Notes: generated by a model not told the origin, from the letters alone. A stretch of DNA of 32,000 bases from Mycoplasma mobile 163K (GCF_000008365.1 NC_006908.1:90001-122000); one strand, 5' to 3'; counted from the stretch's first letter, positions 1,348 to 32,000 are shown. Numbers and translations: made by a program.

Positions 1348-3072
1348 ATGTTTGTAGAAATTATTTTAACCAGCTTGACAGCGTCTTTATTATTGATTTT
1401 GTTAATTTATATCTTAGCTAATTATATTTATTATAAAAATTTAGCTAAAAATCTTGAAAATTTGATGCTTAAACTAGATAGTGTAAATTTTGACAAAATT
1501 GAAAGCGATGCAGCTAGAATTTATCGCATTTCAGAAAAAAATTTAGACTATCAAAATTTATTTTGAGAAATAGATGAAATAAGATTGAAAATTTATAAAT
1601 TTCATGGTGATTTAACAGGAAAAAATTATGATTATAGAGAAGATACAAAGAAAAAAAATATTAAAAGAATAAAGCAAGAAATTAAAAGAGCAAAAGAAGA
1701 TGAATTTAAATTAAATGAATTAATAAATGAATTCGAAGAAAAAAGCAAAAATGTTGTAACAAATGTTAGGACTCTTTGAAATGAATTTGATATTTATCAT
1801 AAAGAACTTAGATATTTGCACAAATATTATTATGATTCCCCAGAAAATACTGAAATTTTCAAAAATTATTCAAATGAAATTGAAAAACTTTTTGATGAAT
1901 CTTTCAATCACAAAACTCATTTTTCTGAATTTGTAAAACAAATGGATAGAAAAAAAGCATTGGAAGAAATGTTTTACTTTAAAGAAAAAATTATCAAACT
2001 TGCTAATATTTTTAGATACATTTTTAATTTCAAAGACTTTGCAGATGTAAATTTTCATCAAGCAATGAAAAAACATAAAACTAACATTGAAAAAAGTATT
2101 GAAAAAGGTATTTTTCTTAGAAATATTTCAACAGAGGATTCTATTAGCAAAATAGAATCTCTTCACCAATCTTTAAATGAATCTTTAAAAATATTAGATA
2201 TGAAAAAATCTAAAGAATCAATTAAAAATATAGCATCGTTATTTGATATGACTCTTTTTGAAATTTTAAAAGAAAAAACTTCATCAGCCATGTTTTTGCA
2301 AAAATATCCTGAGTTTGAAAAAATTTTAGTGAACATGAAATCTAAATATAAAAAAGTATTATTTGAAACTGAAAAAATCGAAGTAGAAAGATCAAGAGAT
2401 CCTATTGAAAATAAAAGTGAAAAAAAATTGTCAATGAATGAATTAACTTCATCTCACAGAAATGATGTTGATAATAATTTTAATGAAATAGAAACAATAA
2501 TTTCCGAAACTCAGACAGAAGGAATTACAAATTTAAGAAAAGCTCATCTCCTAAAAAATGCTTTTTTACTTTTAAAATCAATTAATTCAAGCATCAATTT
2601 AATTACTAAAATAAATTTTCAAAATAGTAATCTTTCAATTTCGAACCAAAAATACTTTCAAAATTTAGAAAGAATTTATTTAGAAAATATTTATGAATTG
2701 AAAATTAAAAAAGTGATTTTAGATGAAAATGAAAAAAACTTAAAACTTTTAATTGAACAACAAAAAAGTTTATTCTTTGATACTTTAAACATTTTAAATG
2801 AAAGCATTGATCCAGAAAATATTGCTACAAAAGTTGATAATTTATTTATGCATATAAAAAAATTTACTAAATCAGTAAATTTAAAATTAGTTAAAATATT
2901 TGTCATTGATGATTTTTTAAAAGAAAATGCACATAAAAGAAGTGGAAATTATAGATGAAATGATTTAGCCATAAGTTTGGAAAGACACCGTTTAGAAGGA
3001 AATTACGATGAGGGAATTGAACTTATAACTTCTTTTTTGGATGACAAAAACTCTAAAAGAAAGGTTAGTTAG
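1348..3072 (+). CDS. Membrane-anchored coiled-coil protein, EzrA-like (septation ring formation regulator candidate), 574 aa
   Basis: Track ORFs 1348-1566, 1585-1779 and 1816-2958 share one frame and are separated only by TGA. The frame runs on to a TAG at 3070-3072. The protein has an N-terminal TM helix (MFVEIILTSLTASLLLILLIYILANYIYY) followed by about 540 aa of K/E/N-rich helical sequence. Its size, topology and position (rpsD, this gene, thiI) mirror Bacillus ezrA. Confidence 0.5.
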
Positions 3073-17015: not shown

Positions 17016-17747
17016 ATGCCTGATTCTAATGAACAAAGAAGTTCAAATAGTCCAAAAAATTACTATGATGTAATAGTGGAAAAAATCAAGACTAAAATAT
17101 TGGAAAATTCTAAAGAAGCCTTATTTTTAGTCGAAAAAGAACTAAATGCTCCATACATTCCAAAAGAATATGAAAATATTTTTAGGGAACTTTTACTTAA
17201 AGCAATTCAAAATTACGAAAATAATCGTGCTCAAATAAAATTAAGTCCAAGTGAATGTTTAGAGATTTTGATTTCAAAAAATAGAAGACTAAAACCCCTT
17301 GCTTTAGCTGAATTGAGAAACTATGCTTTAAGACCTTTTATTAATGAAATTAACCAGCTATTTCAAAAAGAAGAAATCGAAATTCAAATAAAGGCCTCTA
17401 TCTATGAATTCTTATGTGAACAAGATATAAATTTTGAATTCAAAATTGGTAAAGAATCACTCAATCCAGTCAAAAACAAATCATTAGTAAATAACTCATT
17501 TTATTTATTAAATAGGAATAAAATTAATGAAAAAACATTTAAGGATGTTTCTATAACTAATGTGGCTCTAGAAATTTTAAATTCATATTGTGCAACTGTT
17601 TTTCCAGAGGCAATTCTTATTGGAGAAAAAGACTATAGCACTGAATTTATTTACATTGCTAAAAAATTATTGGGTATCGAAAAGGATGAGGAAAAAACTC
17701 CTTTATGTGATATTATATATAGTAGGATTTTTTCAAACAATTCTTAA
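17016..17747 (+). CDS. Conserved hypothetical protein upstream of tig (possibly DUF3196 / MPN330-like)
   Basis: The 243-aa ORF has no TGA. It is helical and K/E-rich, and I recognise no catalytic motif. The family guess rests only on its position immediately upstream of trigger factor, as recalled for M. pneumoniae MPN330/MPN331. Confidence 0.35.
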   Translation: MPDSNEQRSSNSPKNYYDVIVEKIKTKILENSKEALFLVEKELNAPYIPKEYENIFRELLLKAIQNYENNRAQIKLSPSECLEILISKNRRLKPLALAELRNYALRPFINEINQLFQKEEIEIQIKASIYEFLCEQDINFEFKIGKESLNPVKNKSLVNNSFYLLNRNKINEKTFKDVSITNVALEILNSYCATVFPEAILIGEKDYSTEFIYIAKKLLGIEKDEEKTPLCDIIYSRIFSNNS

Positions 17748-17770: not shown

Positions 17771-19222
17771 ATGACAAAAACAGAAATTAACAAAAAAGAT
17801 TGAGAAATAAATGTAGTTGTTTCTTCAGAAAAAAAATTATGAAAAGCAAAACAAGATTTAGCTCTTTCAAATTTAGCGAAAACTTTAAAAATCAAAGGTT
17901 TTAGACCAGGAAAAGCAAGTGTGGAAGCTGCTAAAAAACACTTAAATCCAGAACAAATTCAAGAAGAAGCAGTTAAACTAATTGCAAATGATTTAGTAAA
18001 AATTGCATCTGAATCAATAGATGAGAGTTATATTGTTCTTGATTCACCAATTTATGAAGTTGAAAAAATGTCAGATGCAGAACTTGATTTGAAATTTTCA
18101 TATCCAATTTATCCTGAATTTAAAATAAAAAATTATAAATCTTTAAAAGTAACTTTAAGTAGAGCAAAAGTTTCGAAGGAAGATGTCGATTCAGAAATTG
18201 AAAAAATAAGAGAAAAAAATGCATTATTAATTAAGAAAACTAAAGATCAAGGAAAAGTAGCAAAAACAGACACTGTTAATATTGATTATGTTGGAAAAAT
18301 TGATGGAGAAGAATTTGATGGCGGAAAAGCATCTTCACATGAATTAGTAATTGGTTCAAAATCTTTTATTGATAATTTTGAAGACCAACTTATTGGTTTT
18401 AAATCAGGAGATAAAGTAGAAGTTAAGGTGTCATTTCCAGATGATTATCATTCAAGTAAATTTGCTGGAAAAAAAGCAATTTTTGATGTAAAAATCAATG
18501 ATGTTTTTACAAAGGAAAAACCTGTTAAAAACGATGATCTAGTTAAGTTTCTTAATAATCCAAAATTAAAAACTTTAGCAGAAATGGAAAATTATTTCAA
18601 AGATCTTATTAAAAATGAAAAAGATGAAAAATCAAAGGCAAGTTTTAAAAAAGATATTTTTGAAAAAATAATGAATGAAAATGAAATTCCAGTTCCTAGA
18701 TTAATCTTAATGAAAGAAACTACTAATGCCATTAGAGAATTTGAAAAAGATGTTAAAAAATATGGATTCACAGTAGAAAAATATTTAAAAATGCTTAATA
18801 TGAACTCAAAAGATTTTGTAACTAATTTAAATAAAGAATCAGAATTGAAATTGAAAGAAGCTTTAATTTACACAGAAATTTCTAAACTAGAAAAAATTGA
18901 AGCTCAACCTGAAGATTATGATGTTAAATATAAAAAGTTTGCAAAACTATATAATGTAAGTTTAGATTCAGTAAAATCAATGATTACACAACAACAAGCT
19001 CAAGTAGCGATCGTAAACGAAAAAATTTTAGAATTTTTAATCAAACATAATGCAATTGAAAAAAATTCTGTTGGAGAAGAACCCAAATTGTCAACTACAA
19101 AAAAAGTAGTTGAACCAACAGAAGAAAAAACAAGAAAGGATTCTAAAATGTCAACAAAAAAACCAGCTGCAAAACCAGCTGCAAAACCTGCAGCAGCAAC
19201 AAAAAAACCAGTTAAAAAATAA
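17771..19222 (+). CDS. tig: Trigger factor, 483 aa, with a Lys/Pro/Ala-rich C-terminal extension
   Basis: The ATG at 17771 is preceded by an SD (taggaga). The product begins MTKTEINKKDWEINVVVSSEKKLWKAKQDLALSNLAKTLKIKGFRPGKAS, the ribosome-binding signature GFRPGK. It is in frame with track ORF 17921-19222, which contains the FKBP-type PPIase region DYVGKIDGEEFDGG. Confidence 0.9.
19160..19195 (+). repeat. Three tandem 12-nt units encoding (KPAA)3 inside the tig 3' end
   Basis: The sequence reads aaaccagctgca aaaccagctgca aaacctgcagca. Confidence 0.8.
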
Positions 19223-19319: not shown

Positions 19320-21884
19320 ATGAAATTTTTAAAAAACATTAAATCACTTGAATTTAGATTAGCAGAATCAATGTTAAAGTCAATTAATGATTTAAAAGAA
19401 AAATATCTTGCCTTTAGTGATGAAGAATTAAAAAACATGACAAATGTTTTTAAAGAGAAGTTGAAAAAAAATGTTTCTTTAGAATCAATTAGAATTGATG
19501 CTTTTGCAGTTGCAAGAGAAGCTACTTTTAGAGTTTTAAAAAAACGCCCCTATGATGTTCAAATGATTGGTGGATTAATTTTAGATTTTGGTTCAGTTGC
19601 AGAGATGAAAACAGGAGAAGGAAAAACAATTACTTCAATTGCTCCTGTTTATTTAAATGCTTTAAAAGGTAGTGGAGTAATTGTAAGCACTGTAAATGAA
19701 TATTTAGCAGAACGTGATGCTGCTGAGATGGGCGAGGTTTTTAAATGACTAGGTTTAAGTGTTGGATTAAACAAAGCGAACATGCCATCAAATTTAAAAA
19801 GAGCAGCATATAAATGTGATATCACTTATTCTGTTCATTCAGAGTTAGGATTCGATTATCTTAGAGATAATATGGTTAATTCTTTTGAAGAAAAAGTTCA
19901 AAGAGACTTGAACTTTGCTTTAATTGATGAAGTTGATTCAATTTTGATAGATGAAGCAAAAACTCCTCTTATTATTTCTGGTGGAAAAAGTGATGAAGTT
20001 TCTCTTTATGCAGTTACTGATCAATTTGTAAGAACTTTAGATCACGTTGATTATGCAATTGATGAGGAAACAAAAGCAATAAATTTAACAGCTCAAGGAA
20101 TTGAAAAAACTAAAAAATTTTTCAATTTTAATTCATTATACAATTTAGAAAATAGCGAATTAATACATAGATTACAAAATGCTTTAAGAGCTCATAAAGT
20201 TATGAAAAAAGATGTTGAGTATGTTGTTCTAAATGGGAAAATTGAATTAGTAGATACTTTCACTGGAAGAATAATGGAAGGAAGAAGTTATTCTGAGGGT
20301 TTACAACAAGCAATTCAAGCAAAAGAGCTAGTTGAAATTGATCCTGAAACTAAAACTTTAGCTACAATTACTTACCAAAATTTTTTTCGTCTATTTAAAA
20401 AATTATCAGGAATGACAGGAACGGGTAAAACAGAAGAACAAGAATTCATAGATATTTACAATATGAGAGTTACAGAAATTCCTACTAATGTTCCAATTGC
20501 AAGAATTGATCACCCTGAAAAAGTTTATGTTACATTTCAAGCAAAATATAAAGCAGTTGTTGAAGAGATAAAAAGATTACATGCTAAAAAGCAACCTATT
20601 TTAGTAGGTACTTCTCAAGTTGAAGAATCAGAATACTTGCATCAGCTATTACTTAAAGAGAATTTACCTCATACTGTTTTAAATGCTAAACAAAATAAAA
20701 ATGAAGCGGATATTATTGCTAAAGCAGGAATTGCAGGAGCAATTACAATTGCAACAAATATGGCAGGTCGTGGAACCGATATTAAACCTGATGCAGAATC
20801 TTTAAAGCAAGGTGGTTTATTTGTTTTAGGTACAGATAAATCTGAGGCAAGAAGAATTGATAATCAACTTAAAGGAAGAAGTGGAAGACAAGGTGATGTT
20901 GGTGAAAGTAGATTTTTTATCTCAATTGATGATCAATTGATAAGACGTTTTTCATTACAAGATAAGTGAAAAGAAATTTTTGCTGAGTATAAAGATAATG
21001 AAATTATTGATAAACAAATAAAAAAGGCATTTGATAAAGCTCAGAGAAAAATTGAAGGTTTTAACTATGATAATCGAAAAAATGTTTTAAATTATGATGA
21101 TGTAATAAGACAACAAAGAGATATTATTTATTCTCAAAGAGATTCAATTTTACTTCAGGATGACTTATCACTTGTTGTTGAAAAAATGATTCAAAGAAAT
21201 TCAAAACAAATTATTAAATATGGGGAACTATATACAAGAACAGGTGCTTTAGACCATAAAGCATTAGTAAATTTTGTAAATAAAGAATATATGAATATTT
21301 GTGATTTTAAATTCACTTTGGAAGATTTTAATAATTACATTAATGAAGAAATTCCTCAGCATTTATCTAATATTTTGATTAGAGAGTATAGGAAAATGAG
21401 AGAATTTTTAGTAGAAAAATCTGGTAAATTACCAACTAATCTCTTTGAAAGAAGAGCAATTATTTCAGCTCTTGATGAAAAGTGACAAAATCATATTAAT
21501 TTAATGGATAAATTAAGGCAAAGTGTAAATCTTGTTCAATACTCACAAAAAAATCCTTTTCAAACTTATACGGAAATTGGAACAAAACATTTTGAACAAC
21601 TTGTCGAAGACATTGCAACTAATTCCTTAAAAATAATTATGAATAATCCTTCAGCAAAATTCCAAAATTTAGATGGTGATTTTAAAAATGAGCAAATTAA
21701 ATTAGAAGATGGCTCAATTATTACTATTCCAGCAAACATTCCCTTTGATATTAAAGAGCAAATTATTTCAAAAGCAAAAGAATTATTAAAAGAAAGTGGA
21801 GAGAAGAGAAAAGTTTTTGAAAAAAACATCTTGAGCGATTTAAATTTAGTAGATGAGAAATTTAGAGATTCATCAAAATGATAA
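19320..21884 (+). CDS. secA: Preprotein translocase ATPase SecA, 854 aa
   Basis: Track ORFs 19320-19748, 19782-20969, 21186-21485 and 21504-21881 all share one frame and are joined only by TGA. The product contains MKTGEGKT (Walker A), [13 protein letters not shown] (DEAD-like), [10 protein letters not shown] and GRSGRQGD. The final codons are TGA then TAA, at 21879-21884. Confidence 0.95.
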
Positions 21885-21885
21885 T

Positions 21886-22281
21886 ATGAAAAAATTTAAG
21901 ATAATAGAAATTTTGAATGATTTCAAAGAATTTGAAATTCAAGCAAAATCATGATTTGATAGTTTACCAAAAAAATATAAAACCCAAGATTTAGGACTAC
22001 TTCTATATGATCTTGAAATTTTTAATATTGAACTTTCACAAGGTCATTTCAAATTTGAATTGACACTTGAAAATTTTTCAGAACACCAAAAAACTTATTG
22101 TGATATTTCTTGTAAAAATTCTTATGAAGAATTACTTAAAACAAGTACAAAAAAAGATCATTTTCTTTTTGAAACTCTTCATATTCTCAAATCCCATTGA
22201 AATGAACATGTTGTTTGGGTATCAAAAAAAATTAATAAAAATTTTAATGACAAAAATATCACAAGTGATTTTGTAAGTTAA
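21886..22281 (+). CDS. Hypothetical protein, 131 aa, start-coupled to the secA stop
   Basis: The ATG at 21886 lies 1 nt after the secA TAA. Manual translation gives MKKFKIIEILNDFKEFEIQAKSWFDSLPKKYKTQ...HILKSHWNEHVVWVSKK... with two in-frame TGA codons, ending at a TAA at 22279-22281. Track ORF 22067-22276 is in a different frame. Confidence 0.5.
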
Positions 22282-22394: not shown

Positions 22395-24488
22395 ATGGAG
22401 TTCAACACATTTGAGAAGGAAACTTTTATTAAAAGTTTGAAAACAAGAACAATATTTCCTTTTTACATTAAAAATGTTAATGAAAAATTTTTTTCTAATT
22501 TAAATAATCATCAAAACAAAATATTTTTGAAAAAAATTCTTCCTAGAATTGAAAATGAATTAGAAAATGAAGAGCTTCAAGCAATAAAGACAATTGAAAA
22601 TTTAGCTAAACCTGAAAAGATTTTAAGAATGATTAATTTAGCTTTAAAAAAAGTTGCTGCTCTAACAGGTACTCGTAACACAGAACTTTTTCAAAAAATT
22701 GGTAAAGATGAATTTAACGAACCTTTATTTATAAGAATTAAAGCCAATCATAATGATCTTGAAATCTTAGGAGATAAACACGAAGATTCTCGTTTTTCTT
22801 ACGCAATAAATATTAATCGAGACAATTATTTATTTCCATTTATAGAACAAATTCAGCTAGCTTTTTATTTAGATCATGAAACTAATAGAATTTCAGGTGG
22901 ATTTTCTTTAAATGTCGGAAATGATGAAACTGATTTGGATTTTAAAGAAAGTGTTGATAAAGTCTATTTTTATTCAATTATGAAAAAGTTTTGAACTGCT
23001 CAACTTTATCCTTTAACTTTAGATAATATCTTAAATATTGTTTATGACATTAATGGAACTAAATCAACAAATAAATCAAATTCAAAATTTAGTAATACAA
23101 ATACAAAAAAATCTTCTCAAGGATATAGCAAAGATTGAGCTAAAGTTATCAATTTTGAACAAGTTTCCCTTGAAGAATTGCAAGATAACTGAAGAAAATT
23201 TATTGATAAAAAGTTTTTGAAATATAAATCATTTTCAAATGAAGAAAGAAAATTTTATGAAGACCAAGCTTTTTACATGATGATGATTACTAGTTTAGTA
23301 ATGCTATATTTATTACAAGAAATTAACACTTATTTTACTTCTGAAAAACCTGAATTAATTTTAGGGCTTTTAAATAAACCAGCTAGATTGACAGATAATA
23401 AGGACCAAAATTATCAAGAAGATTTTAATGCTTTAACTTCTTATATTTATAAAAATTTTTATCTAAATGAAAAAAACTCAAAAAATATTAGAATTAAGAA
23501 AATTGATAGAGCCAAAGAATTAGTAGACTTTTTAACAGATTATTCTCAAGCAAATACTTCAGATATTTCTTTAAGTGATTTGGTTTCTTCTTTTGAAATT
23601 CTACCAAATACAAAAATTCAAATGCTTGATAGAAAATCTATACTAGAAGATTTGAATTTCAAGGCATTCTTTTTATTAATTGCCTTCCCAGAACTTTATA
23701 GTATCAGCCCTAATAATTCAACTTTAATTGAATATAGGCAACTTTTAAATTCATTAGATTCAAGTCAAAATATGTCCTTTTCAAACTCTATTATTGAAAA
23801 TTTAGATGATTACATTACAGAAATAAATTATGATTATGCTTCATTTGTAACAACAAATTCAATTGTTATTTTGAAAAATAATGATCCAGTAAGTGTTGAT
23901 GTTCAAAACAATAAAATTCTTGTTGTTAAAGACGAAAATAGAAGAGTTTACAATAATTATTTTTGGTCTGTGATTTATTTGCAATCCAAAATTTCAGAAA
24001 AAAATCATATTGAATTTGAAATTAATAGAATTTTGAATTCAGACATAAAATACAAATCATTTATCTTTAAAGAAGCAATCCAAAATTTAGATGATTTGCA
24101 ATTTGACTGATATGACCATTTTTATGGATTACCCATTAAAAATATTATTCAAAAAATGGATAATGAAAATAACCTAAAAAACTCAATAGATATTTTGAGC
24201 TCTAAAATCAAAAAAGAAAATGAGGAAATCAAGCGCACAACTGAAAGAAATTATATTACTTTAGCTTTTGTTATTGCTGTTTTGATAGGTTTTTTTGATT
24301 TTATATCAATGGTATTTACAATTTTACCAAATACTTTAAAGTCTGTTTCTGATCCTTATATTTATACTTTTATTGGAATTGGAACATTTATTTTTTCTAT
24401 TTTGATTTCAATTTTTGCTTTAACAATGGGCAAAAGATTAACAAACAAAAGAAAAGCAATTGAGTATGAGAAAAAGCAAAATCTTTAA
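22395..24488 (+). CDS. Orphan 697-aa protein: large soluble N-terminal region, coiled coil, and a C-terminal two-helix membrane hairpin with a basic tail
   Basis: Track ORFs 22395-22994, 23217-24110 and 24156-24488 share one frame. I translated the gaps and they contain only TGA codons. The C-terminus reads ...KKENEEIKRTTERNYITLAFVIAVLIGFFDFISMVFTILPNTLKSVSDPYIYTFIGIGTFIFSILISIFALTMGKRLTNKRKAIEYEKKQNL. I recognise no enzymatic motif. Confidence 0.8.
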
Positions 24489-24517
24489 AAAAACATCTAT
24501 TACTAGATGTTTTTTTT
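24487..24517. terminator. Bidirectional intrinsic terminator shared by convergent genes
   Basis: The sequence is aaaaaa-acatcta-ttac-tagatgt-ttttttt. The 7-bp stem is flanked by A and T runs. Confidence 0.7.
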
Positions 24518-24884
24518 AACCATTAAAATGATGTTCTTGGTCACTTAATAATTCATTAGGATATGAAAAAATAATATGAACATGAGTATGAAAAACAACT
24601 TGCCTTGCATCAGATTCATTATTTACATGCAATTGATATCCACTAGCCTTATTTTCTTTCATAAATTTTTTTGCTAATTTATTAGCAACCATCATTAAAT
24701 TAATTAAATCTTCATCATCAATTGAAATTAAGTTTCTGCTAAAATTTTTAGGTACAACTAAAAAATGCCCTTTAGAAATTGGTTTAATATCTAAAAAAGC
24801 AATAGTCTTGCTGTCTTCATAAATAATTTTTGCTGGTACTTCCTTATTAATGATTTTTTGAAAAATTGTTTCTTGTTGCAACAT
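24516..24884 (-). CDS. HIT-family (histidine triad) nucleotide hydrolase, HinT-like
   Basis: The 122-aa product begins IFQKIINKEVPAKIIYEDSKTIAFLDIKPISKGHFLVVPK and contains the histidine triad HTHVHII. Its SD (aaaggata) lies 13 nt after the upstream stop. Confidence 0.9.
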   Translation of the reverse strand: MLQQETIFQKIINKEVPAKIIYEDSKTIAFLDIKPISKGHFLVVPKNFSRNLISIDDEDLINLMMVANKLAKKFMKENKASGYQLHVNNESDARQVVFHTHVHIIFSYPNELLSDQEHHFNG

Positions 24885-24897
24885 AGTTATCCTTTTG

Positions 24898-26790
24898 TTA
24901 AAGTTTTAAAATACCTTCAGTTCTTGCTGCATCTAGTAAAGCTTGATTATTGTTTATTTCCAAAACATTTCCAAGTTTTACATAAAATGTTTTCATTTGA
25001 TTGAAAATAGAAGTTCTATTTTGAGTAAAAAGCGAATAGTACAAATTTTCTTTTACAATTGCTCTATTATTATCTATTGTTTCTGCTCAAGGAGTATTAA
25101 TAAAAGTAAATCTTGAAGAATTAACATTAAATAATGGTACCACTTTATTAAAATATGTAAGTGTAGCTGAAGAAGCTGTAACATTTATAGGAACAGAAGT
25201 AACTAGGTCGTCATTTATTAGAGATAAAATATTAGTTTCAGATAATAACCCTCCATATTTTAGATTTAAATTATCAGAAAAGACACTATTATCCAAACTT
25301 ATTTGATTTATTATAGAATTTGTTTCAGAAGATTTTGTGTTTAATCTTATATTGAAATTCAGTTCTCTTAATGAATTTAAAATGCTTGAATTTTCTAAAA
25401 TTCTTCTTACATCATTACTTAAATTTGCTCTAGCTAAATTTAAGTCTAATTTAACATTTAAATCAATTGAACTAGTGTTTACAATTCTAGATACTCTATT
25501 CAATTTAAAATTAAATACACTTCCTGCATTTTCACTTAAAGTAAAATTATCTTCTTTTAACAATGAGACATCAGTTATTTGATTATTATTTAAACTTATA
25601 TTTAAATTTTGAACTTGAGTAGCAGCCTCTTCAAGATAAAATTTAACAATATTATTTCTCATTAATTCATTCAAGCTATAAATATTATTTGTTTTTGTAA
25701 TATGAACAAAACCACTTTCAATTCTTGTAGCAGCTCTTAAAGTTGCGATATCATAATTGATTATTGGAGCTCCTGTATTTTGAAATGAAAATCCTCTATA
25801 ATTTACAATGTTTGAACTACTATTTGATGATGTTGTAATATTAGGTAAATTATTTGCTGAAATATTTCAATTGATATTATCGTTTAAACCAATTAAAGAT
25901 TCTAATTTTTGTTTTGTATTTAATGCTATATTATTATTTCTAAACAAAGCATTAAAGCCATTTTCACCTTCAATTGTATTAATATTAGTATTCAAAAAAT
26001 TATTTGTATTTTGAGTTTGGTTAAATTCTCATCTTTCAGAAACTTGATTTTCTAATAAATATTTAATTAACAAAAAATTTGGATTTGAAACATCAATTGA
26101 TTCTAAAATGGTTTTTGCATTTGATGTTCCCGAAGCTCCAATTACAGTATTATAATCTGTTCCGTTTTTTATATTATTTTCAGTTTGCTTTGAAAAATAA
26201 TGCTTAGCCAAAATCATTTGATTGATTGTGTTAGAAATTGTACTTTGATTAATATTATACATTTGTACAAAAATGTTTGTTCCTAAAAAATTTAAATCAC
26301 TTTTTGAGTAAGAATTATTATTTATAAATCCTGCTAAAGGTAAAGTTTTATCTCTTTCAGGGTTAAAATCAATAATTGAAATCCCATTTCTTTCTAAAGT
26401 ATTACTTTTAAACTCAATTCAAAAACTTTTATTTTGCTGAATTTGAATTGCTTGATAAAAATTTCAAGCACTTACAGCATCATTTCTAAAGTTTATAAAT
26501 GCAGAAGAATTATTAGAAAAAGTAAAAACTGTTTCGGCATCATTTCATGTTCCTTTAAATGCATTTTGTACATCGATTGAGGGCTCATTTGTAGTTTTTG
26601 GAAATTCAACATTTAAGTTTGCATTTAATATTCCATTAACTCATGTTTGCAAAACAGCAGCTCTAGCTTGCTCTGTTGTTAATGAAGCACTAACATTAAT
26701 GTCTTGTACATTTGTGCTACATGCAACAACAACTAATGAAGTTGATAAAATTGCTGGAGTTGCAATTGAAAGTAAAAGTCTTTTTTTCAT
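24898..26790 (-). CDS. Surface lipoprotein, 630 aa (P60-like candidate)
   Basis: ATG is at 26790 (SD taagga). The signal peptide MKKRLLLSIATPAILSTSLVVVAC places the lipobox Cys at residue 24. The frame matches track ORFs 26029-26262 and 25087-25674. I checked the junctions codon by codon and found only TGA. The ORF ends at a TAA at 24898-24900. The sequence is N/S/T-rich. Confidence 0.85.
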
Positions 26791-26798
26791 TTTTTTCC

Positions 26799-29450
26799 TT
26801 AATTTATTATAACTTTGAATTCAAAACTCTTAGTTATACTTGATTCTTTATTTGTAGAATTTATATTATTTGAAAAATCATTTGTTGCAATATTTGCTTC
26901 AATAACAATTTTATATTCTCCTCTTTGTAAAGTAGATCCATTTACTAAAGAAAGTTCAAATTGTGTTTTTTGTTTTCCAATTTCATTTGTTCTGGAATTT
27001 GCAACAATAAGCAAATTAAATAGATTTGACAAATTATTTGGATTGTTTTCAACAAAAACACTTTTTATATCCAATAAATTAGGGTCATAAAAATTAAGAT
27101 TTGAATTCGAATCTAAATTTATATTGTAAATATTTTGTTCTAAAATTATTGATGTAAAATTAACTAAATTACCTTCAAATAAAATATCTGATCCATTTAA
27201 TGAATTTAAAGTAATAACATTTGTTGCATGTTGTGTAATTGTATTGATTGTTGTTGTTATAGCATCTAACGGAGAATTATTATTTTGAATTATTCATTGA
27301 TTATTTTTAAAAATATAGTTTTCTTTCAAATTACTATTTATTTGAGAATTAATATAATCATTAATTTTAGTTTGTACATTAATTGATCTATTTGTTTCTG
27401 CACTATTTATAAAACTTCTTAGAGTTTCAATTGCATTGTTAATATCTTTATCTAAGAATTTTGTTGGGCTAGAAGTTGTTAATGAAGTGTTATTTTGTAA
27501 TAATAAAAATTTTCTAAACTCAACTGTTTCTTCGGTATTTGAACTTAAAAAATTAAATAGAATTCTTTGATCAGAATTTGCTGTATTAATATTAGCTATT
27601 GAGTTTTGAGTAGCAAAAATATTATCAGAATTAAAAGTTATATTTTGATTTGTTGCAAAAGTAGTATTTGCACTTAATTGCAAGTCATCTTTAATTGCAC
27701 TTAAATATGAATCTATAGAATTAAAATTTTTAACTGAATTAATATTTATACCTGTAGAAGAAAGCGTAATTATATTTCCGTCTGGTAACAAGTAAGATTC
27801 TGCAAGTTTTCCTTGATTACCAACAGCAAATGATTGCTGAAGTGCTCTACCAGCTAAAGATGTCACCTCACTAGCATTCAATCCAGAAACACCAGAATTT
27901 CCATTTAAAATATTTGAAATTCTAGTGTTAGCTTGTATTATTTGCTGTGTTGCATTTGTAGAATTTGCAAAAGTTGTAATTTGATTAATATCAATTCCTG
28001 CCTTTGCGAATATATTTGAATTTATATTATTAATAATATCTGTTAAGATGTCTTTTTCGACTTTTGTGAAAGTATTTTCTATTAAAGGTAAAATTGAACC
28101 TGCATCTTGAGCATTTAATAAAGCAAGAGTGTCTTGAATTCCTCTAGAACCTAAATTATTTTTAGTCCCATTATCACTAACTGTATTCAATAACTGAGAG
28201 TCAAGTCTTCTTCTTGCAAGGTCAGTTGAACTAGAATTAATACCTTTTCAATTTCTTATTAAATCAATATTTAAACTTGGTTTATTTGTTAATGGATTCA
28301 TTGTGTAAGAAAATAATTTTACTAAAACATTTGCACTTATAGTTCATGGTAAAAGAGGGTCACTTGTATTTGGGGTGGCATTAATGTTAAAAGTAGCAAT
28401 ATTTTGGGAATTTAAACTTTTAAAATAATTTTTAATATTATCTAAAGGATTTTTTTTAGAAATATCAAAAGTGTTGCTTGTAAAAAGAGCAATCTGAGAA
28501 GAAAGACTATTTTGATTAAATGATGAATCATTTGGTCTTATATTTTGCATTGCAAAAAATCTTTGTTCTAAAAAAGATGCAAAAGGATTTTCTCCATTTT
28601 TTAAAATTGTAGTTCCATCAACAAATTTCAATGTTCCATTAGGTTCTACAACAATTTTATTTCTTAAAGTAACATCTTGATTTAATTTTCTTGAGCTTAT
28701 ATCATATTGACTAAAACTATTAAATCCATCTGAAGTTACTTGGCCACTTGTGGAAGGTGTAAGAGATGCTATTTGAGAAACATTGAATCTTCTCAAAGCA
28801 TTTGCTTTAATAACATTTGTTATTGAATTTTGTAGAGCTTGTTCGCTAGTAATAGCTCCATTAAATGAAGTACTTCATAAATTTAATAATGCTGTTGTTC
28901 TTGCAGTCCCTGCAGGATTGTTATCGATGATATTTTTTTCTCTAGCTTCTAAGGTATTTCTTTGTTCAGCAATAATTCTACTCAAAGGTTTTAAGGCAAT
29001 ATTATTAACAACAGCATTAGTTGGATTAGTTAGATTTAATATTTCTTGATACTGAACTGATGCATTTTGTTCAATTTGATATAAATATTGATAAAAATAA
29101 TTTTGAATAGCTTGAACATTTCCACTTTGTGTTTCTGAATTTAGTAATTGAAATAAATTTTGAAATTCTCCAACAGTTAGAGTAACTTTTTCCCCAGACG
29201 AATTAGTAAATGTTATTAAATTGTCATTAAGTCTTGGAGGATTTGTAGGTGAAATTTGTTGTGCAGCTAATCCAACAGGAACACCAACACCTACTGCTAC
29301 AAAAGTAATAAGTGAAGCCCCAATTATATAGGCGAATTTATTATTTTTAGGAGGCGTATTATCAATATTGTTTTTTGATAATTTTTCAACAAAACTTTCG
29401 CTTTCTTTAGTTGTTTTTAAAACTTTTTTTGCATTATCTTTTTTTGCCAT
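26799..29450 (-). CDS. Single-pass surface protein, 883 aa (P80-like candidate)
   Basis: Track ORFs 28875-29450, 28344-28796, 27294-28190 and 26799-27074 share one frame. I translated all three gaps and they contain only TGA. The N-terminus MAKKDNAKKVLKTTKESESFVEKLSKNNIDNTPPKNNK is followed by the TM helix FAYIIGASLITFVAVGVGVPVGLAA and then QQ. An ectodomain of about 820 aa, N/S/T/Q-rich, follows. Confidence 0.85.
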
Positions 29451-29470
29451 AATAACTCCTTTAAATTAAT

Positions 29471-29506
29471 AGTAAAACTATATATAAATATAATTATTAT
29501 TTTACT
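29471..29506 (-). promoter_or_regulatory. Inverted repeat overlapping the putative -10 of the surface-protein/HIT operon
   Basis: On the minus strand, AGTAAAA (which contains the TAAAAT -10 candidate) pairs with TTTTACT across a 22-nt AT spacer. The SD aaaggag and the ATG at 29450 lie downstream. Confidence 0.3.
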
Positions 29507-29576
29507 CTATATTTTATTTAAAATAAGTTATTTTTTTAATCTTATATTTTAAATTTAAACTAAATTTTTCAAACAT

Positions 29577-30842
29577 TTAAATCTTTTCAACATTTAAATA
29601 AGGAATTAATACTTTAGGAACACTAATAGAACCATCATCATTTTGATATTGTTCTAAAATAGCAGCAAGAACTCTATCAATTGCTAAGCCAGATCCATTA
29701 ATAGTGTGAACATATTGAGTATTTTTGTTTTCATCACGGTATCTTATCATAGATCTTCTTGATTGAAAATCGCCAAAATATGAAACACTTGACACTTCAC
29801 GATATCTTTGTTCACTTGGTAACCATAATTCTAAATCAATTGTCTTTCTTGAAGAAAAACCTAAATCACCTGTACATAACAGAACTTCTCGATAAGGTAT
29901 TTCTAAAAGTTCTAATAGATATTTTGCATTTTTTAAAACAGAATTAAAAGCCCTTAGAGATTTTTGTTCGGATGCAAATTCTACAAGCTCAACCTTATTA
30001 AATTGATGTAATCTAATAATGCCTTTTGTATCTCTTCCTGCACTACCAGCTTCTGAACGAAAGCAATTTGTGAATGAACTAAATTTTGAGTTTTTTTCCA
30101 AATCGATTATTTCATTATTAAATAAATTAGTAACTGGCACTTCTGCTGTTGGAATTAAATATAAATCATGACCCTCTATTTTGAAAAGGTCCTCTTTAAA
30201 TTTTGGTAATTGACCTGTTCCATACATCATTTTAGAATTAACTAAAAAAGGAGGCATTATTTCACTATAACCATTTTTTTCATGAGTATCAAGCATAAAT
30301 GATTCAAGAGCTCTAATTAATTTTGCTCCAGCATTTTTGTAGACAATAAATCTTGAACCACTCAATTTCGCCCCTCTAGAAAAATCAATCAAATCTTTTT
30401 CTACACCAATTTCATAATGTGGTTTTTTAGCTTTAACAAGTCCTCTACCAATTTTTGGAAATTCTTTTAGAATGACATTATCAGTATCATCTTTTCCAAA
30501 AGGAACATCATCTAAAGGTATGTTAGGAATAAAAGAGATCAGTTCTTGTATTTTGTTTTCAATTTTAGTTGATTTTTCTTCCAAAATACTTAGTTCTTTC
30601 TTAATGTTCTCAACTTCATCCATAAAAAATAAAGCATCTGTTTTATTTCTCTTTGCTTCTCCAATTTTTGAAGAAATTTCATTTCTTTTAGATTGTAATT
30701 CACTTAAAGAAATCAATATATTTGCTCTTTCAGTTCCTAATGTATATAATTTTTCAATTTCTGAGACATTAAAATTAGATCTTTGTTTTAATTTTGAAAT
30801 TACAAAATCCTTATTTTTTAAAATTAATTTAATATCTAACAT
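29577..30842 (-). CDS. serS: Seryl-tRNA synthetase
   Basis: The 421-aa ORF is intact. It has an N-terminal coiled-coil arm and class II motifs (FRSEAGSAGRDTKGIIRLHQFNKVE, GSGLAIDRVLAAILE). Confidence 0.95.
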   Translation of the reverse strand: MLDIKLILKNKDFVISKLKQRSNFNVSEIEKLYTLGTERANILISLSELQSKRNEISSKIGEAKRNKTDALFFMDEVENIKKELSILEEKSTKIENKIQELISFIPNIPLDDVPFGKDDTDNVILKEFPKIGRGLVKAKKPHYEIGVEKDLIDFSRGAKLSGSRFIVYKNAGAKLIRALESFMLDTHEKNGYSEIMPPFLVNSKMMYGTGQLPKFKEDLFKIEGHDLYLIPTAEVPVTNLFNNEIIDLEKNSKFSSFTNCFRSEAGSAGRDTKGIIRLHQFNKVELVEFASEQKSLRAFNSVLKNAKYLLELLEIPYREVLLCTGDLGFSSRKTIDLELWLPSEQRYREVSSVSYFGDFQSRRSMIRYRDENKNTQYVHTINGSGLAIDRVLAAILEQYQNDDGSISVPKVLIPYLNVEKI

Positions 30843-30917: not shown

Positions 30918-30928
30918 AAAAACATATA

Positions 30929-32000
30929 ATGAATAAAAATACTTCTTTTAAAATAAAAGCAAAAATTAAAAATGTTATTTGGAAAAATCCAAATAATTTA
31001 GGCATAAAAATTGTTAATTTAGCAATTCTTGAAGACGAATTTAATTATTTGAAAGAAAAAGAATTCCCAGCTAAAGATTATAAATCTATGTTAGTTGAAG
31101 AATTAGAATATGAATTAGATGTAAGTTTTAGTGATGATTCTAAAAAAACACTTTATATTAACAATGCATCAATAACGTTTCCAAATACAGCAAAAAAATT
31201 GATAAATTTTTTTTCATCTTCTCTATTTCCAGGTATCGGAAAAACCTCAGCAACTTTAATTGTTGAAAAATTAAAAATTGATTCTATAGAAAAAATAGTG
31301 GATCATATTGAAGACATTTCAATTTTAATTGGGCAATCAAAAGCTAAAGTAATTCAAGAAGTAATTGAAAATAATTATAATAATTATGAAGCTCATCAAT
31401 TTTTTATAATTAATTCTTTACCCATTTCTTTGTTAGAAAAATTTAGCTTTTATTATGGCAAGAAAAATCTATTAAATAAATTAAAAGAAAATTTATATAA
31501 GATTGTTTATTTTGATCCCTCTGTAAAATTAGAACTTTTAACAAAAATTCACAAACTTTTAAATTTGAAAATTGATGAATTAGAATTTTTAAAAGCTAGT
31601 ATTTACAAAATTCTTTTCCTTTATACCAATAATTCAAATAACACCTACATGAGTTTAGATTTTTTGTTCAAATCTTTTTCTGAAAAATTTAGTTATATTA
31701 GCCTAGATAAAGTTAAATTTTCTGATTTAATAACTTTTTTAAAAAATGAAAAGCATCTAGATTTTTTTAAAATAAAAAATAAAATTTTTGTTATTAGTGA
31801 ATTTTTCAAAGATCACGAAAAATTTATTTTTGAATACATTAGTAGTCTTGAAAAAAAAATTAGTCAGCACACTTTTAATTTAGAAAAAATTATCAATTCT
31901 AAAACTTTAGATTCAATTCAAAAAGAAGCAATAATTTATTCTTTAAATAACTCTTTTAATATTATTAGTGGAATTCCAGGTAGTGGTAAAAGCGCAATTA
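30929..32000 (+). CDS. RecD2-like (RecD/TraA family) ATP-dependent DNA helicase, N-terminal about 357 codons; continues beyond the window
   Basis: The frame is open from ATG at 30929 to the window end and is not listed in the track. It contains the HhH-like LFPGIGKTSATLIVEKL. It ends with QKEAIIYSLNNSFNIISGIPGSGKS, the Walker A motif. Confidence 0.7.
   Translation, partial: MNKNTSFKIKAKIKNVIWKNPNNLGIKIVNLAILEDEFNYLKEKEFPAKDYKSMLVEELEYELDVSFSDDSKKTLYINNASITFPNTAKKLINFFSSSLFPGIGKTSATLIVEKLKIDSIEKIVDHIEDISILIGQSKAKVIQEVIENNYNNYEAHQFFIINSLPISLLEKFSFYYGKKNLLNKLKENLYKIVYFDPSVKLELLTKIHKLLNLKIDELEFLKASIYKILFLYTNNSNNTYMSLDFLFKSFSEKFSYISLDKVKFSDLITFLKNEKHLDFFKIKNKIFVISEFFKDHEKFIFEYISSLEKKISQHTFNLEKIINSKTLDSIQKEAIIYSLNNSFNIISGIPGSGKSAI

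What the first reader, a model, noticed from the sequence alone, without database searches (positions are those of the whole stretch)
24516..29450. Two large surface proteins are operon-linked to a cytosolic HIT hydrolase (P80/P60/HinT-like module of unknown function)
Three minus-strand genes are separated by only 8 nt and 13 nt.
1. The first encodes an 883-aa protein. It has a Lys-rich cytoplasmic N-terminus, a single TM helix ending in an AxA-like LAA/QQ site, and a featureless N/S/T/Q-rich ectodomain of about 820 aa.
2. The second encodes a 630-aa lipoprotein with the lipobox VVAC.
3. The third encodes a 122-aa histidine-triad protein (HTHVHII).

It is odd for a cytoplasmic nucleotide hydrolase to be translationally chained to two exported proteins. 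The only parallel I know is the M. hominis P60/P80/HinT (hitABL) locus. There, HinT was reported to bind the membrane complex and P80 to be released after cleavage, and the biological role remains unknown. I recall the M. hominis gene order as lipoprotein first; here the TM protein comes first. This may therefore be a variant arrangement, or my recollection of the order may be wrong.

I could not assign either large protein to any enzymatic or structural family from sequence.
Basis: partly seen in the sequence, partly recalled or inferred. Interest (0 to 1): 0.7.

Follow-up and report, generated by a model that had tools for sequence, protein, structure and literature searches.

The report
Known mycoplasma P80/P60/HinT (hitABL) operon

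Summary
Read with TGA as Trp, three minus-strand genes lie at 26799-29450 (883 aa), 24898-26790 (630 aa) and 24516-24884 (122 aa), separated by 8 and 13 nt.

All three proteins score above the curated NCBIfam cut-offs for "HinT-interacting membrane complex protein P80", "lipoprotein P60" and "histidine triad protein HinT".

The window comes from Mycoplasma mobile. This exact locus (MMOB_910/900/890) was described by Hopfe et al. 2005.

The order P80, then P60, then HinT is the canonical one, so this is not a variant arrangement.

In a survey anchored on HinT, 27 of 29 Mollicutes loci carried the same trio, and 0 of 51 non-Mollicutes loci did. Most gene junctions there overlap by 1 nt.

Small additions from this work:
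- The cytoplasmic tail of P80 carries a conserved motif (SFFEKL..N; SFVEKLSKNN here).
- M. mobile P80 has a C-terminal extension of about 140 aa, found otherwise only in its closest relative.
- Some lineages have lipoprotein-type P80 with no tail.
- One genome has P80-P60 with no adjacent hinT.
- P80 has no detectable relative among solved structures or Pfam families.

Verdict: real, correctly interpreted and already known. Interest is low.

The parts
26799..29450 (-). hitA: P80, the HinT-interacting membrane complex protein (883 aa; MMOB_910). It has an N-in signal anchor and a large ectodomain.
   Evidence: Table-4 ORF. NF045833 scores 274.9 bits against a cut-off of 150. 100% identical to the NCBI M. 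mobile P80. AF2 model has pLDDT 70.9.
29367..29396 (-). Codons for P80 residues 19-28 (SFVEKLSKNN), the conserved motif in the cytoplasmic tail. It is a candidate HinT-docking peptide; that role is an inference.
   Evidence: Alignment A1: N28 is invariant and the consensus is SFFEKL..N. A strict regular expression finds the motif in 20 of 27 TM-anchored P80s, with looser variants in the other 7 and none elsewhere in the P80 sequences.
29262..29336 (-). Codons for the P80 transmembrane signal anchor (about residues 39-63), ending in VGLAA/QQ, an SPase I-like site.
   Evidence: Hydropathy segment 38-66. P58 is invariant in A1. Hopfe 2005 also reports an SPase I site in MMOB_910.
26802..27218 (-). 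Codons for P80 residues 745-883, a C-terminal extension predicted to be mostly beta-strand. It was found only in M. mobile and in its closest known relative.
   Evidence: Absent from 15 of 17 sequences in A1. BLASTP against 30 other P80s finds nothing at E < 0.7. AF2 predicts beta strands at low confidence, pLDDT 43-66. Foldseek gives only weak Ig-like hits, E >= 0.9.
24898..26790 (-). hitB: P60 lipoprotein (630 aa; MMOB_900), with lipobox VVAC and Cys24.
   Evidence: NF045835 scores 148.2 bits against a cut-off of 140. Precomputed Pfam PF28251 (P60-like), and 100% identical to the NCBI M. mobile P60. Alignment A2 has invariant C24, Y198, L241 and W254.
24516..24884 (-). hitL: HinT, a histidine-triad nucleoside phosphoramidase (122 aa; MMOB_890), with HTHVHII at residues 99-105.
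   Evidence: PF01230 at E = 2.4e-24. NF045834 scores 147.8 bits against a cut-off of 130. The best solved relatives are human HINT1 (E = 1.8e-21) and E. coli hinT.
24487..24516 (.). AT-rich hairpin followed by a T-run. It is the probable bidirectional terminator shared by hinT and the convergent MPN337/338-family gene.
   Evidence: RNA fold of -12.7 kcal/mol, z = -3.9; 1 of 200 shuffles folds as well. The sequence was read.
29451..29576 (-). 126-nt AT-rich spacer between serS and P80, with a Shine-Dalgarno sequence (AAAGGAG at 29456-29462). It probably holds the promoter, but none could be assigned.
   Evidence: Sequence read. Promoter-like hexamers are no more frequent than in shuffled sequence, 50 against 51.7.

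Best explanation
This is the hitABL operon of Mycoplasma mobile.

**What the three genes encode**
- hitA encodes P80. It inserts with its Lys-rich N-terminus in the cytoplasm, spans the membrane once through an uncleaved signal anchor, and exposes a folded alpha/beta ectodomain of about 820 aa.
- hitB encodes P60, a lipoprotein anchored through acylated Cys24. It pairs with P80 on the cell surface.
- hitL encodes a cytoplasmic Hint-type nucleoside phosphoramidase.

**How it most likely works**
The three genes are translated from one transcript that ends at the hairpin after hinT. By homology with M. hominis, the HinT dimer is recruited to the inner face of the membrane by the cytoplasmic tail of P80. 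I propose that the conserved SFFEKL..N motif is the docking site. The P80 ectodomain can be released by cleavage at the SPase I-like site.

The net effect is a transmembrane assembly that holds an AMP-phosphoramidate / aminoacyl-adenylate hydrolase next to a surface complex. The physiological substrate and the purpose remain unknown.

**Shown here:** the identity of the three proteins, their topology features, and the conserved order and tight spacing.

**Inferred from M. hominis work or from sequence:** the polycistronic transcript, P60-P80 pairing, HinT-tail binding and P80 release.
For: - All three proteins pass the curated NCBIfam cut-offs.
- P80 and P60 are 100% identical to proteins already named P80 and P60 in M. 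mobile.
- Hopfe 2005 describes this locus and gives the order hitA = P80, hitB = P60, hitL = HinT. RT-PCR shows a polycistronic transcript in M. pulmonis and M. hominis.
- Hopfe 2004 reports, for M. hominis, HinT-P80 binding by immunoprecipitation and BIAcore, tight P60-P80 association, and release of P80 shortened by about 10 kDa.
- The trio recurs in 4 of 5 complete loci anchored on P80. It recurs in 27 of 29 Mollicutes loci anchored on HinT and in 0 of 51 non-Mollicutes loci.
- Junctions are usually a 1-nt overlap, although flanking genes differ and P80 identity is only about 20-25%.
- The cytoplasmic-tail motif is conserved in all 27 TM-anchored P80s.
- A hairpin follows hinT, and Shine-Dalgarno-like sequences precede each gene.
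Against: - Nothing was measured in M. mobile: no transcript data, no binding data.
- Four lineages (L011, L014, L018 M. todarodis, L030 M. marinum) have a lipoprotein-type P80 with no cytoplasmic tail, yet keep hinT adjacent. Tail docking therefore cannot be the universal reason for the linkage.
- One genome (L007) has P80-P60 followed by a terminator and recO, with no HIT gene within 4 kb.
- The tail is modelled at pLDDT ~30.
- The M. mobile junctions (8 and 13 nt) are looser than the 1-nt overlaps usual elsewhere.
Confidence: 0.85

Rival explanations
1. The genes are co-transcribed but the proteins are not physically coupled in M. mobile. HinT would be a housekeeping hydrolase, for example clearing lysyl-AMP or other aminoacyl-adenylates and phosphoramidates. 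It would simply share a promoter with an abundant surface antigen/adhesin pair, and the linkage would persist because the genes are so tightly packed.
For: - P80 variants with no cytoplasmic tail still have hinT adjacent.
- L007 has P80-P60 without hinT.
- HinT occurs without P80/P60 in every non-Mollicutes locus.
- lysS lies within ~3 kb of hinT in 10 of 30 loci, and directly after it in L005.
- E. coli HinT hydrolyses lysyl-AMP generated by LysU (PMC3130732).
- P60/P80 are described as cytoadhesive antigens (PMC5533444).
Against: - The order and the overlapping junctions are kept across proteins that are only ~20-25% identical, with reshuffled flanks. That is more than passive hitch-hiking would predict.
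- The cytoplasmic tail motif is conserved.
- Direct HinT-P80 binding was measured in M. hominis.
- In L040 and L067 hinT is also chained to membrane or lipoprotein genes of other families.
Confidence: 0.25
2. P80/P60 form the extracellular part of a membrane transport system, with an ABC-type permease encoded nearby or elsewhere. HinT acts on its cytoplasmic side.
For: - In the closest relative of M. mobile (L088), an ABC ATPase and a 7-TM ABC-2 permease sit directly upstream of P80 on the same strand.
- Hopfe 2005 notes permease or ATPase genes next to hitL in M. pneumoniae, M. genitalium, M. penetrans and U. parvum.
- L040 has an ABC ATPase and a 3-TM protein overlapping hinT.
- ABC ATPase genes lie near the trio in 8 of 30 loci.
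Against: - M. mobile itself has no ABC genes between serS and P80.
- ABC genes are very common in mycoplasma genomes, so chance proximity is likely.
- P60 and P80 match no substrate-binding protein family.
Confidence: 0.12
3. P80 is a membrane-anchored extracytoplasmic chaperone of the SurA/PrsA/PpiD/trigger-factor type that assists exported proteins.
For: This rests only on impressions:
- An N-terminal anchor is followed by a beta-hairpin and long helices.
- tig and secA lie 3-7 kb away in the window.
- yidC or tig lie near the trio in a few other loci.
Against: - Foldseek against the PDB gives no hit at E < 0.9 and no chaperone among the listed matches.
- No SurA_N, Rotamase or Trigger_C Pfam hit in any of 17 P80s at E <= 1.
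- hhalign of a 31-sequence P80 profile against trigger factor gives probability 0.2%.
Confidence: 0.03
4. A rearranged variant of the hit locus, with the TM protein first instead of the lipoprotein first. The reader raised this as an alternative.
Against: - hitA = P80 is first in M. hominis and M. pulmonis.
- Every trio locus examined has the order P80-P60-HinT.
Confidence: 0.01

Closest known systems
M. hominis hitABL operon (P80/P60/HinT; Kitzerow & Henrich 2001; Hopfe et al. 2004, 2005)
   Same: - The same three protein families, by curated HMMs.
- The same order, P80-P60-HinT, on one strand.
- P80 with a cytoplasmic basic tail, an uncleaved-type signal anchor and an SPase I-like site.
- P60 with a lipobox.
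- A Hint-branch HIT protein with the HxHxHxx motif.
   Different: - M. mobile P80 is larger (883 aa against ~720 aa) because of a ~140-aa C-terminal extension.
- It is reported as mainly beta rather than helical, and is a mixed alpha/beta fold in my model.
- P60 carries a central insert (630 aa against 412-547 aa in the shorter homologues).
- HinT ends HIIF plus a 17-aa tail, instead of HIIP plus 2-10 aa.
- Junctions are 8 and 13 nt rather than overlapping.
Lipoprotein-type hit loci (M. mycoides MSC_0500, Mesoplasma florum MF_235 in Hopfe 2005; here L011, L014, L018, L030, L067)
   Same: Two exported proteins are encoded immediately upstream of hinT on the same strand.
   Different: In those loci the P80-like protein is a lipoprotein with no cytoplasmic tail. 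M. mobile has the tail-bearing signal-anchor type.
E. coli HinT (ycfF) and human HINT1
   Same: Homologous catalytic domain (E = 4.5e-15 and 1.8e-21). E. coli HinT supports the activity of a membrane-bound enzyme, DadA, and hydrolyses lysyl-AMP (PMC3130732).
   Different: Neither is encoded with P80/P60-like proteins: 0 of 51 non-Mollicutes hinT loci have them.
'P80 family lipoprotein' of M. agalactiae / M. synoviae (Lipoprotein X / Lipoprotein 10 domains)
   Same: Only the name and the approximate size.
   Different: It is a different family (PMC9769879). The M. mobile protein has no such Pfam domains and is not a lipoprotein.

Membership tests
HinT-interacting membrane complex protein P80 (NF045833) | Sequence match to the curated family model above its cut-off | tested here: met
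   274.9 bits against a cut-off of 150, covering residues 35-740. 100% identical to the NCBI protein of that name.
HinT-interacting membrane complex protein P80 (NF045833) | N-terminal basic cytoplasmic tail, a single signal-anchor helix and an SPase I-like site; not a lipoprotein | tested here: met
   The tail (residues 1-38) has 10 Lys. The hydrophobic segment is 38-66 and ends LAA/QQ. There is no lipobox. Hopfe 2005 agrees.
HinT-interacting membrane complex protein P80 (NF045833) | Physical binding of HinT, and release of the ectodomain into the medium | not testable with these tools
   Shown only for M. hominis (PMC539234). A conserved tail motif is compatible with binding.
P60 lipoprotein (NF045835 / PF28251 P60-like) | Sequence match above the cut-off | tested here: met
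   148.2 bits against a cut-off of 140. PF28251 is precomputed for the identical protein.
P60 lipoprotein (NF045835 / PF28251 P60-like) | Lipobox with an acylatable Cys after the signal peptide | tested here: met
   LVVVAC, with Cys24. C24 is invariant in A2.
P60 lipoprotein (NF045835 / PF28251 P60-like) | CS1 and CS2 conserved segments of Hopfe 2005 | tested here: met
   TINQMILAKHYFSK and FLLIKYLLE align with conserved columns of A2, where Y198, L241 and W254 are invariant. Hopfe reports 43% and 70% identity for MMOB_900.
Mycoplasma HinT (NF045834; HIT superfamily, Hint branch) | Family HMM above its cut-off, plus the histidine triad HxHxHxx | tested here: met
   147.8 bits against a cut-off of 130. 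PF01230 at E = 2.4e-24. H99, H101 and H103 are invariant in A4.
Mycoplasma HinT (NF045834; HIT superfamily, Hint branch) | Nucleoside phosphoramidase activity | not testable with these tools
   Inferred from homology to HINT1 and E. coli hinT.
hitABL operon | Order P80-P60-HinT on one strand with minimal spacing, conserved across species | tested here: met
   Gaps of 8 and 13 nt. 27 of 29 Mollicutes hinT loci carry the trio in this order.
hitABL operon | A single polycistronic transcript | not testable with these tools
   No terminator was predicted inside the operon, and a hairpin follows hinT. RT-PCR evidence exists only for M. hominis and M. pulmonis.
   No Pfam hit. No PDB sequence hit. 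No Foldseek hit for P80. The P60 fold could not be modelled.
SurA/PrsA/PpiD/trigger-factor chaperones | Chaperone-domain sequence or fold similarity | tested here: not met
   (hhalign probability 0.2%).

The most novel reading that the evidence does not exclude
The conserved cytoplasmic motif in the P80 tail (Phi-F-x-E-[KR]-L-x2-3-N) would be a dedicated docking peptide for the HinT dimer. The module would then be a transmembrane device that couples the state of a surface P80/P60 complex to hydrolysis of an adenylylated or aminoacyl-adenylate substrate at the membrane. Its recurrent neighbours would point to the pathway it serves: a divergent LicD/Mf1-like phosphocholine-transferase gene, lysS, HAD phosphatases and ABC components. 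M. mobile would be a stripped-down version that has lost the neighbouring ABC genes and gained an Ig-like C-terminal domain.
Probability: 0.15. Interest if true: 0.5.

Novelty: already known. Interest (0 to 1): 0.15.

Why it matters
The locus is a correct rediscovery of a published module that already carries curated annotation, so it adds no new biology.

Its remaining value is that the function of P80/P60/HinT is still open after about 25 years. HinT is nearly universal, yet its physiological role in bacteria is poorly defined.

The comparative details gathered here give concrete handles for anyone who wants to test the HinT-P80 docking model:
- the conserved tail motif
- natural tail-less P80 variants
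- a genome with P80-P60 but no adjacent hinT
- recurrent LicD-like and lysS neighbours

Tried and rejected
1. The word-indexed homologue searches with P80, with P60 and with the P60 alignment each returned only the query and one relative. The candidate list was swamped by low-complexity words. The exhaustive search rescued P80.
2. The search for related loci with the P80 alignment failed because no stretch was conserved enough. I anchored on a HinT alignment instead.
3. The P60 structure prediction failed. The 2-sequence alignment gave pLDDT 29.8, which is unusable, so no fold search was run on it.
5. PDB sequence searches with the P80 and P60 profiles found nothing significant.
6. A Pfam scan of all 17 P80 family members gave only scattered chance hits.
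7. The SurA/PrsA/trigger-factor-like chaperone idea for P80 was rejected.
8. The 'variant gene order' idea was rejected.
9. The promoter scan was uninformative: 50 sites against 51.7 in shuffles. The terminator scan missed the AT-rich hairpin after hinT, which folding then confirmed.


Full report
**Observation**

The window is AT-rich (GC about 0.19-0.30). Under table 11 the two large genes break into many short ORFs.
- 26799-29450, 883 aa
- 24898-26790, 630 aa
- 24516-24884, 122 aa

They are separated by 8 nt and 13 nt. P80 and P60 use 4 and 7 TGA codons and no TGG.

- a 38-residue N-terminal tail with 10 Lys
- one hydrophobic segment (about residues 38-66) ending VGLAA/QQ
- an ectodomain with 41% N+S+T+Q, against 25% for all proteins in the window
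- the P60 lipobox VVAC, with Cys24
- HTHVHII at HinT residues 99-105

Each gene is preceded by a Shine-Dalgarno-like sequence (AAAGGAG, AAGGA, AAGGA). A 13-bp AT-rich hairpin followed by a T-run lies at 24487-24516 (-12.7 kcal/mol, z = -3.9), directly after the hinT stop codon. It abuts the stop of the convergent gene.

**Identity**

All three proteins pass the curated NCBIfam cut-offs:

| Protein | Model | Score (bits) | Cut-off |
|---|---|---|---|
| P80 | NF045833, HinT-interacting membrane complex protein P80 | 274.9 | 150 |
| P60 | NF045835, HinT-interacting membrane complex lipoprotein P60 | 148.2 | 140 |
| HinT | NF045834, histidine triad protein HinT | 147.8 | 130 |

In the Pfam copy available here, only the HIT domain is recognised. 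The identical database P60 protein carries a precomputed PF28251 'P60-like' assignment.

The protein database holds 100%-identical P80 and P60 entries from a 777,079-bp contig, named as [Mycoplasma] mobile. The window is therefore M. mobile.

**Literature**

- Hopfe, Hegemann & Henrich 2005 (PMC1173108) describe this locus explicitly. MMOB_910 is P80-like, with an SPase I site, and larger than M. hominis P80. MMOB_900 is P60-like, with conserved segments CS1 and CS2. MMOB_890 is HinT, 55.7% identical to M. hominis HinT.
- The same paper makes clear that hitA encodes P80, hitB encodes P60 and hitL encodes HinT ('MYPU_0060/hitA'; P80 and P60 'encoded by hitAB').
- Hopfe et al. 2004 (PMC539234) give the functional model for M. 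hominis. P60 is tightly bound to P80. P80 is anchored by an uncleaved type I signal peptide whose N-terminus is proposed to reach the cytoplasm and bind HinT (immunoprecipitation and BIAcore). P80 is released into the medium about 10 kDa smaller.
- No paper in the searchable library assigns a function, and none mentions the M. mobile genes apart from Hopfe 2005.

**Conservation of the linkage**

An exhaustive HMMER search of 1.84 billion representative proteins found only 16 P80 relatives at E <= 0.001. The family is small and fast-evolving, with 19-23% identity to the M. mobile protein outside its one close relative.

Looking up contigs for six of these relatives gave:
- P80, then P60-like (PF28251), then HIT in all four loci that were complete on the downstream side and had a HIT gene
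- one truncated contig
- one exception, L007 (GCA_053851775.1), where P80-P60 is followed by a hairpin and recO, with no HIT gene within 4 kb

I then anchored a scan of one genome per species on a HinT alignment and classified every ORF with HMMs built from my P80, P60 and HinT alignments.

Results for the 29 loci whose records are Mollicutes:
- 25 have the complete trio.
- 2 (L013, L015) have P60-HinT preceded by a P80 gene that is cut off by the contig end.
- 1 (L067) has two very divergent lipoprotein genes directly before hinT.
- 1 (L040) has an ABC ATPase and a 3-TM protein whose gene overlaps the hinT start.

None of the 51 loci from candidate-phyla-radiation bacteria, Alphaproteobacteria, Actinobacteria or archaea has P80 or P60.

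The order is always P80-P60-HinT on one strand. The P80/P60 junction is a 1-nt overlap in most loci, and the P60/HinT junction is usually between -1 and +5 nt. Flanking genes differ widely. The linkage is therefore real and under selection, as Hopfe et al. argued from five genomes.

**New details**

1. *Tail motif.* The cytoplasmic tail of P80 carries a conserved motif, with consensus (S/T)FFE(K/R)L..N and SFVEKLSKNN in M. mobile at residues 19-28. N28 is one of only eight invariant columns in the 17-sequence alignment. A strict regular expression finds the motif in 20 of 27 TM-anchored P80s, and nowhere else in 18,817 residues of P80 sequence. The other seven show close variants such as SFFSNLNT, HFFKKVAKLN and SISQKISSIN. 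Conservation of an n-region is unusual for a signal peptide. It fits a cytoplasmic binding function, and HinT docking is the obvious candidate, but that is an inference.
2. *Tail-less variants.* Four loci (L011, L014, L018 Mycoplasma todarodis, L030 M. marinum) have P80 with a lipobox and no tail, yet hinT is still adjacent. Their HinT proteins share a distinctive C-terminal extension of about 14-17 aa. This matches the pro-lipoprotein P80-like genes that Hopfe 2005 noted in M. mycoides and Mesoplasma florum. It argues that tail docking cannot be the only basis of the linkage.
3. *C-terminal extension.* M. mobile P80 has about 140 extra C-terminal residues (745-883). Only its closest relative shares them (P0002, 56% identity). 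No similarity was detectable in 30 other P80s.
4. *HinT terminus.* M. mobile HinT ends HIIF followed by a 17-residue tail, rather than the usual HIIP followed by a few residues.

**Structure**

AlphaFold2 with the 17-sequence alignment gave a usable P80 model (mean pLDDT 70.9, pTM 0.65):
- a disordered tail and a low-confidence TM region
- a well-predicted mixed alpha/beta core from about residue 110 to 743
- a low-confidence beta-rich C-terminal extension

The ectodomain is thus compositionally biased but not featureless.

P60 could only be modelled with two sequences, and that failed (pLDDT 29.8).

HinT is a standard Hint-branch protein. Its best solved relatives are human HINT1 at E = 1.8e-21 and E. 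coli hinT at 4.5e-15.

**Mechanism**

The best-supported account is the M. hominis model transferred by homology. It is a transmembrane assembly of P80 (N-in signal anchor) and P60 (lipoprotein), with the HinT dimer recruited to the cytoplasmic tail and an ectodomain that can be shed.

- Shown here: family membership, topology features, operon-like packing and conserved synteny.
- Inferred: co-transcription, the P60-P80 and HinT-P80 contacts, and cleavage.
- Still unknown: what the assembly is for.

Bacterial HinT is a purine nucleoside phosphoramidase. In E. coli it hydrolyses LysU-generated lysyl-AMP and is required for the activity of the membrane-bound enzyme DadA (PMC3130732). A role in removing an adenylyl or aminoacyl-adenylate species at the membrane is therefore a reasonable guess.

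Rival readings, with their evidence, are given in the rival explanations. They are co-transcription without physical coupling, an accessory role for an ABC transporter, a chaperone role, and a rearranged variant. The last two are essentially excluded.

**Verdict**

The locus is already known, in this organism, and is already annotated with curated family names. Interest is low. The only open question is the long-standing one about the module's function.

Noticed in passing
L003:4155-4886(-), L007:3041-3847(-), L008:784-1500(-) and 13 further loci: A LicD-family gene lies divergently 72-154 nt upstream of P80 in at least 16 of 30 trio loci. It matches PF04991 at 23.5 bits and has a sub-threshold match (61-69 bits) to NF045866, 'diacylglycerol cholinephosphotransferase Mf1'. 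It is absent at that position in M. mobile, where serS sits instead.
   Followed up: partly
L005:7700-9169(+), and 9 further loci (cluster 5): lysS (lysine--tRNA ligase; NF001756, 637 bits) lies within about 3 kb downstream of hinT in 10 of 30 trio loci, and directly after hinT on the same strand in L005. Lysyl-AMP is a known HinT substrate in E. coli, so this may be meaningful, or it may be inherited synteny.
   Followed up: partly
L007:4001-8558 (GCA_053851775.1): The P80-P60 pair is followed by a terminator-like hairpin and recO, with no HIT gene within 4 kb. This is a natural case of the surface pair without an adjacent hinT.
   Followed up: partly
L011, L014, L018 (Mycoplasma todarodis), L030 (M. 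marinum): The P80 homologues have a lipobox N-terminus and no cytoplasmic tail. The adjacent HinT proteins share a C-terminal extension of about 14-17 aa (...T(E/Q)T.K.I...(I/L)K(I/F)SL).
   Followed up: partly
L088:3043-5953(+) (Logan SRR26596586, closest relative of M. mobile): An ABC ATPase and a 7-TM ABC-2 permease lie between serS and P80 on the same strand. Both genes are missing from the corresponding 126-nt spacer in the window (29451-29576).
   Followed up: partly
L067:2902-6381 and L040:2678-5782: In two Mycoplasmatales MAGs, hinT is chained to other exported or membrane proteins: two divergent lipoproteins in L067, and an ABC ATPase plus a 3-TM protein in L040. My P80 and P60 HMMs do not recognise these proteins.
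   Followed up: no
window 22395-24488 (+): A 697-aa protein of the MPN337/MPN338 family (NF045750, 748 bits) with C-terminal TM segments. It is convergent with hinT and shares the hairpin at 24487-24516. Its function is unknown.
   Followed up: partly
window 17771-19222 (+), 19320-21884 (+), 29577-30842 (-), 30920-32000 (+): Trigger factor (tig), secA, serS and a RecD2-like helicase fragment flank the locus. tig or yidC also lie near the trio in a few other genomes (L035, L054; L005, L025, L045). This is probably coincidental.
   Followed up: partly
window 17016-17747 (+) and 21853-22281 (+): Two small proteins with no confident family assignment. The first has a sub-threshold DUF3196 match (26.9 bits against a cut-off of 28.2). 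The second has no match.
   Followed up: no
window 1348-3072 (+): A 574-aa protein with an N-terminal TM segment, rich in Lys, Glu and Asn, with no NCBIfam match at E <= 1e-5. Its 3' end overlaps the start of the next gene (3041) by 32 nt.
   Followed up: no
literature (PMC9769879): Name collision. The 'P80 family lipoprotein' of M. agalactiae and M. synoviae (Lipoprotein X / Lipoprotein 10 domains) is a different family from the HinT-interacting P80, and annotation searches by name can confuse the two.
   Followed up: yes
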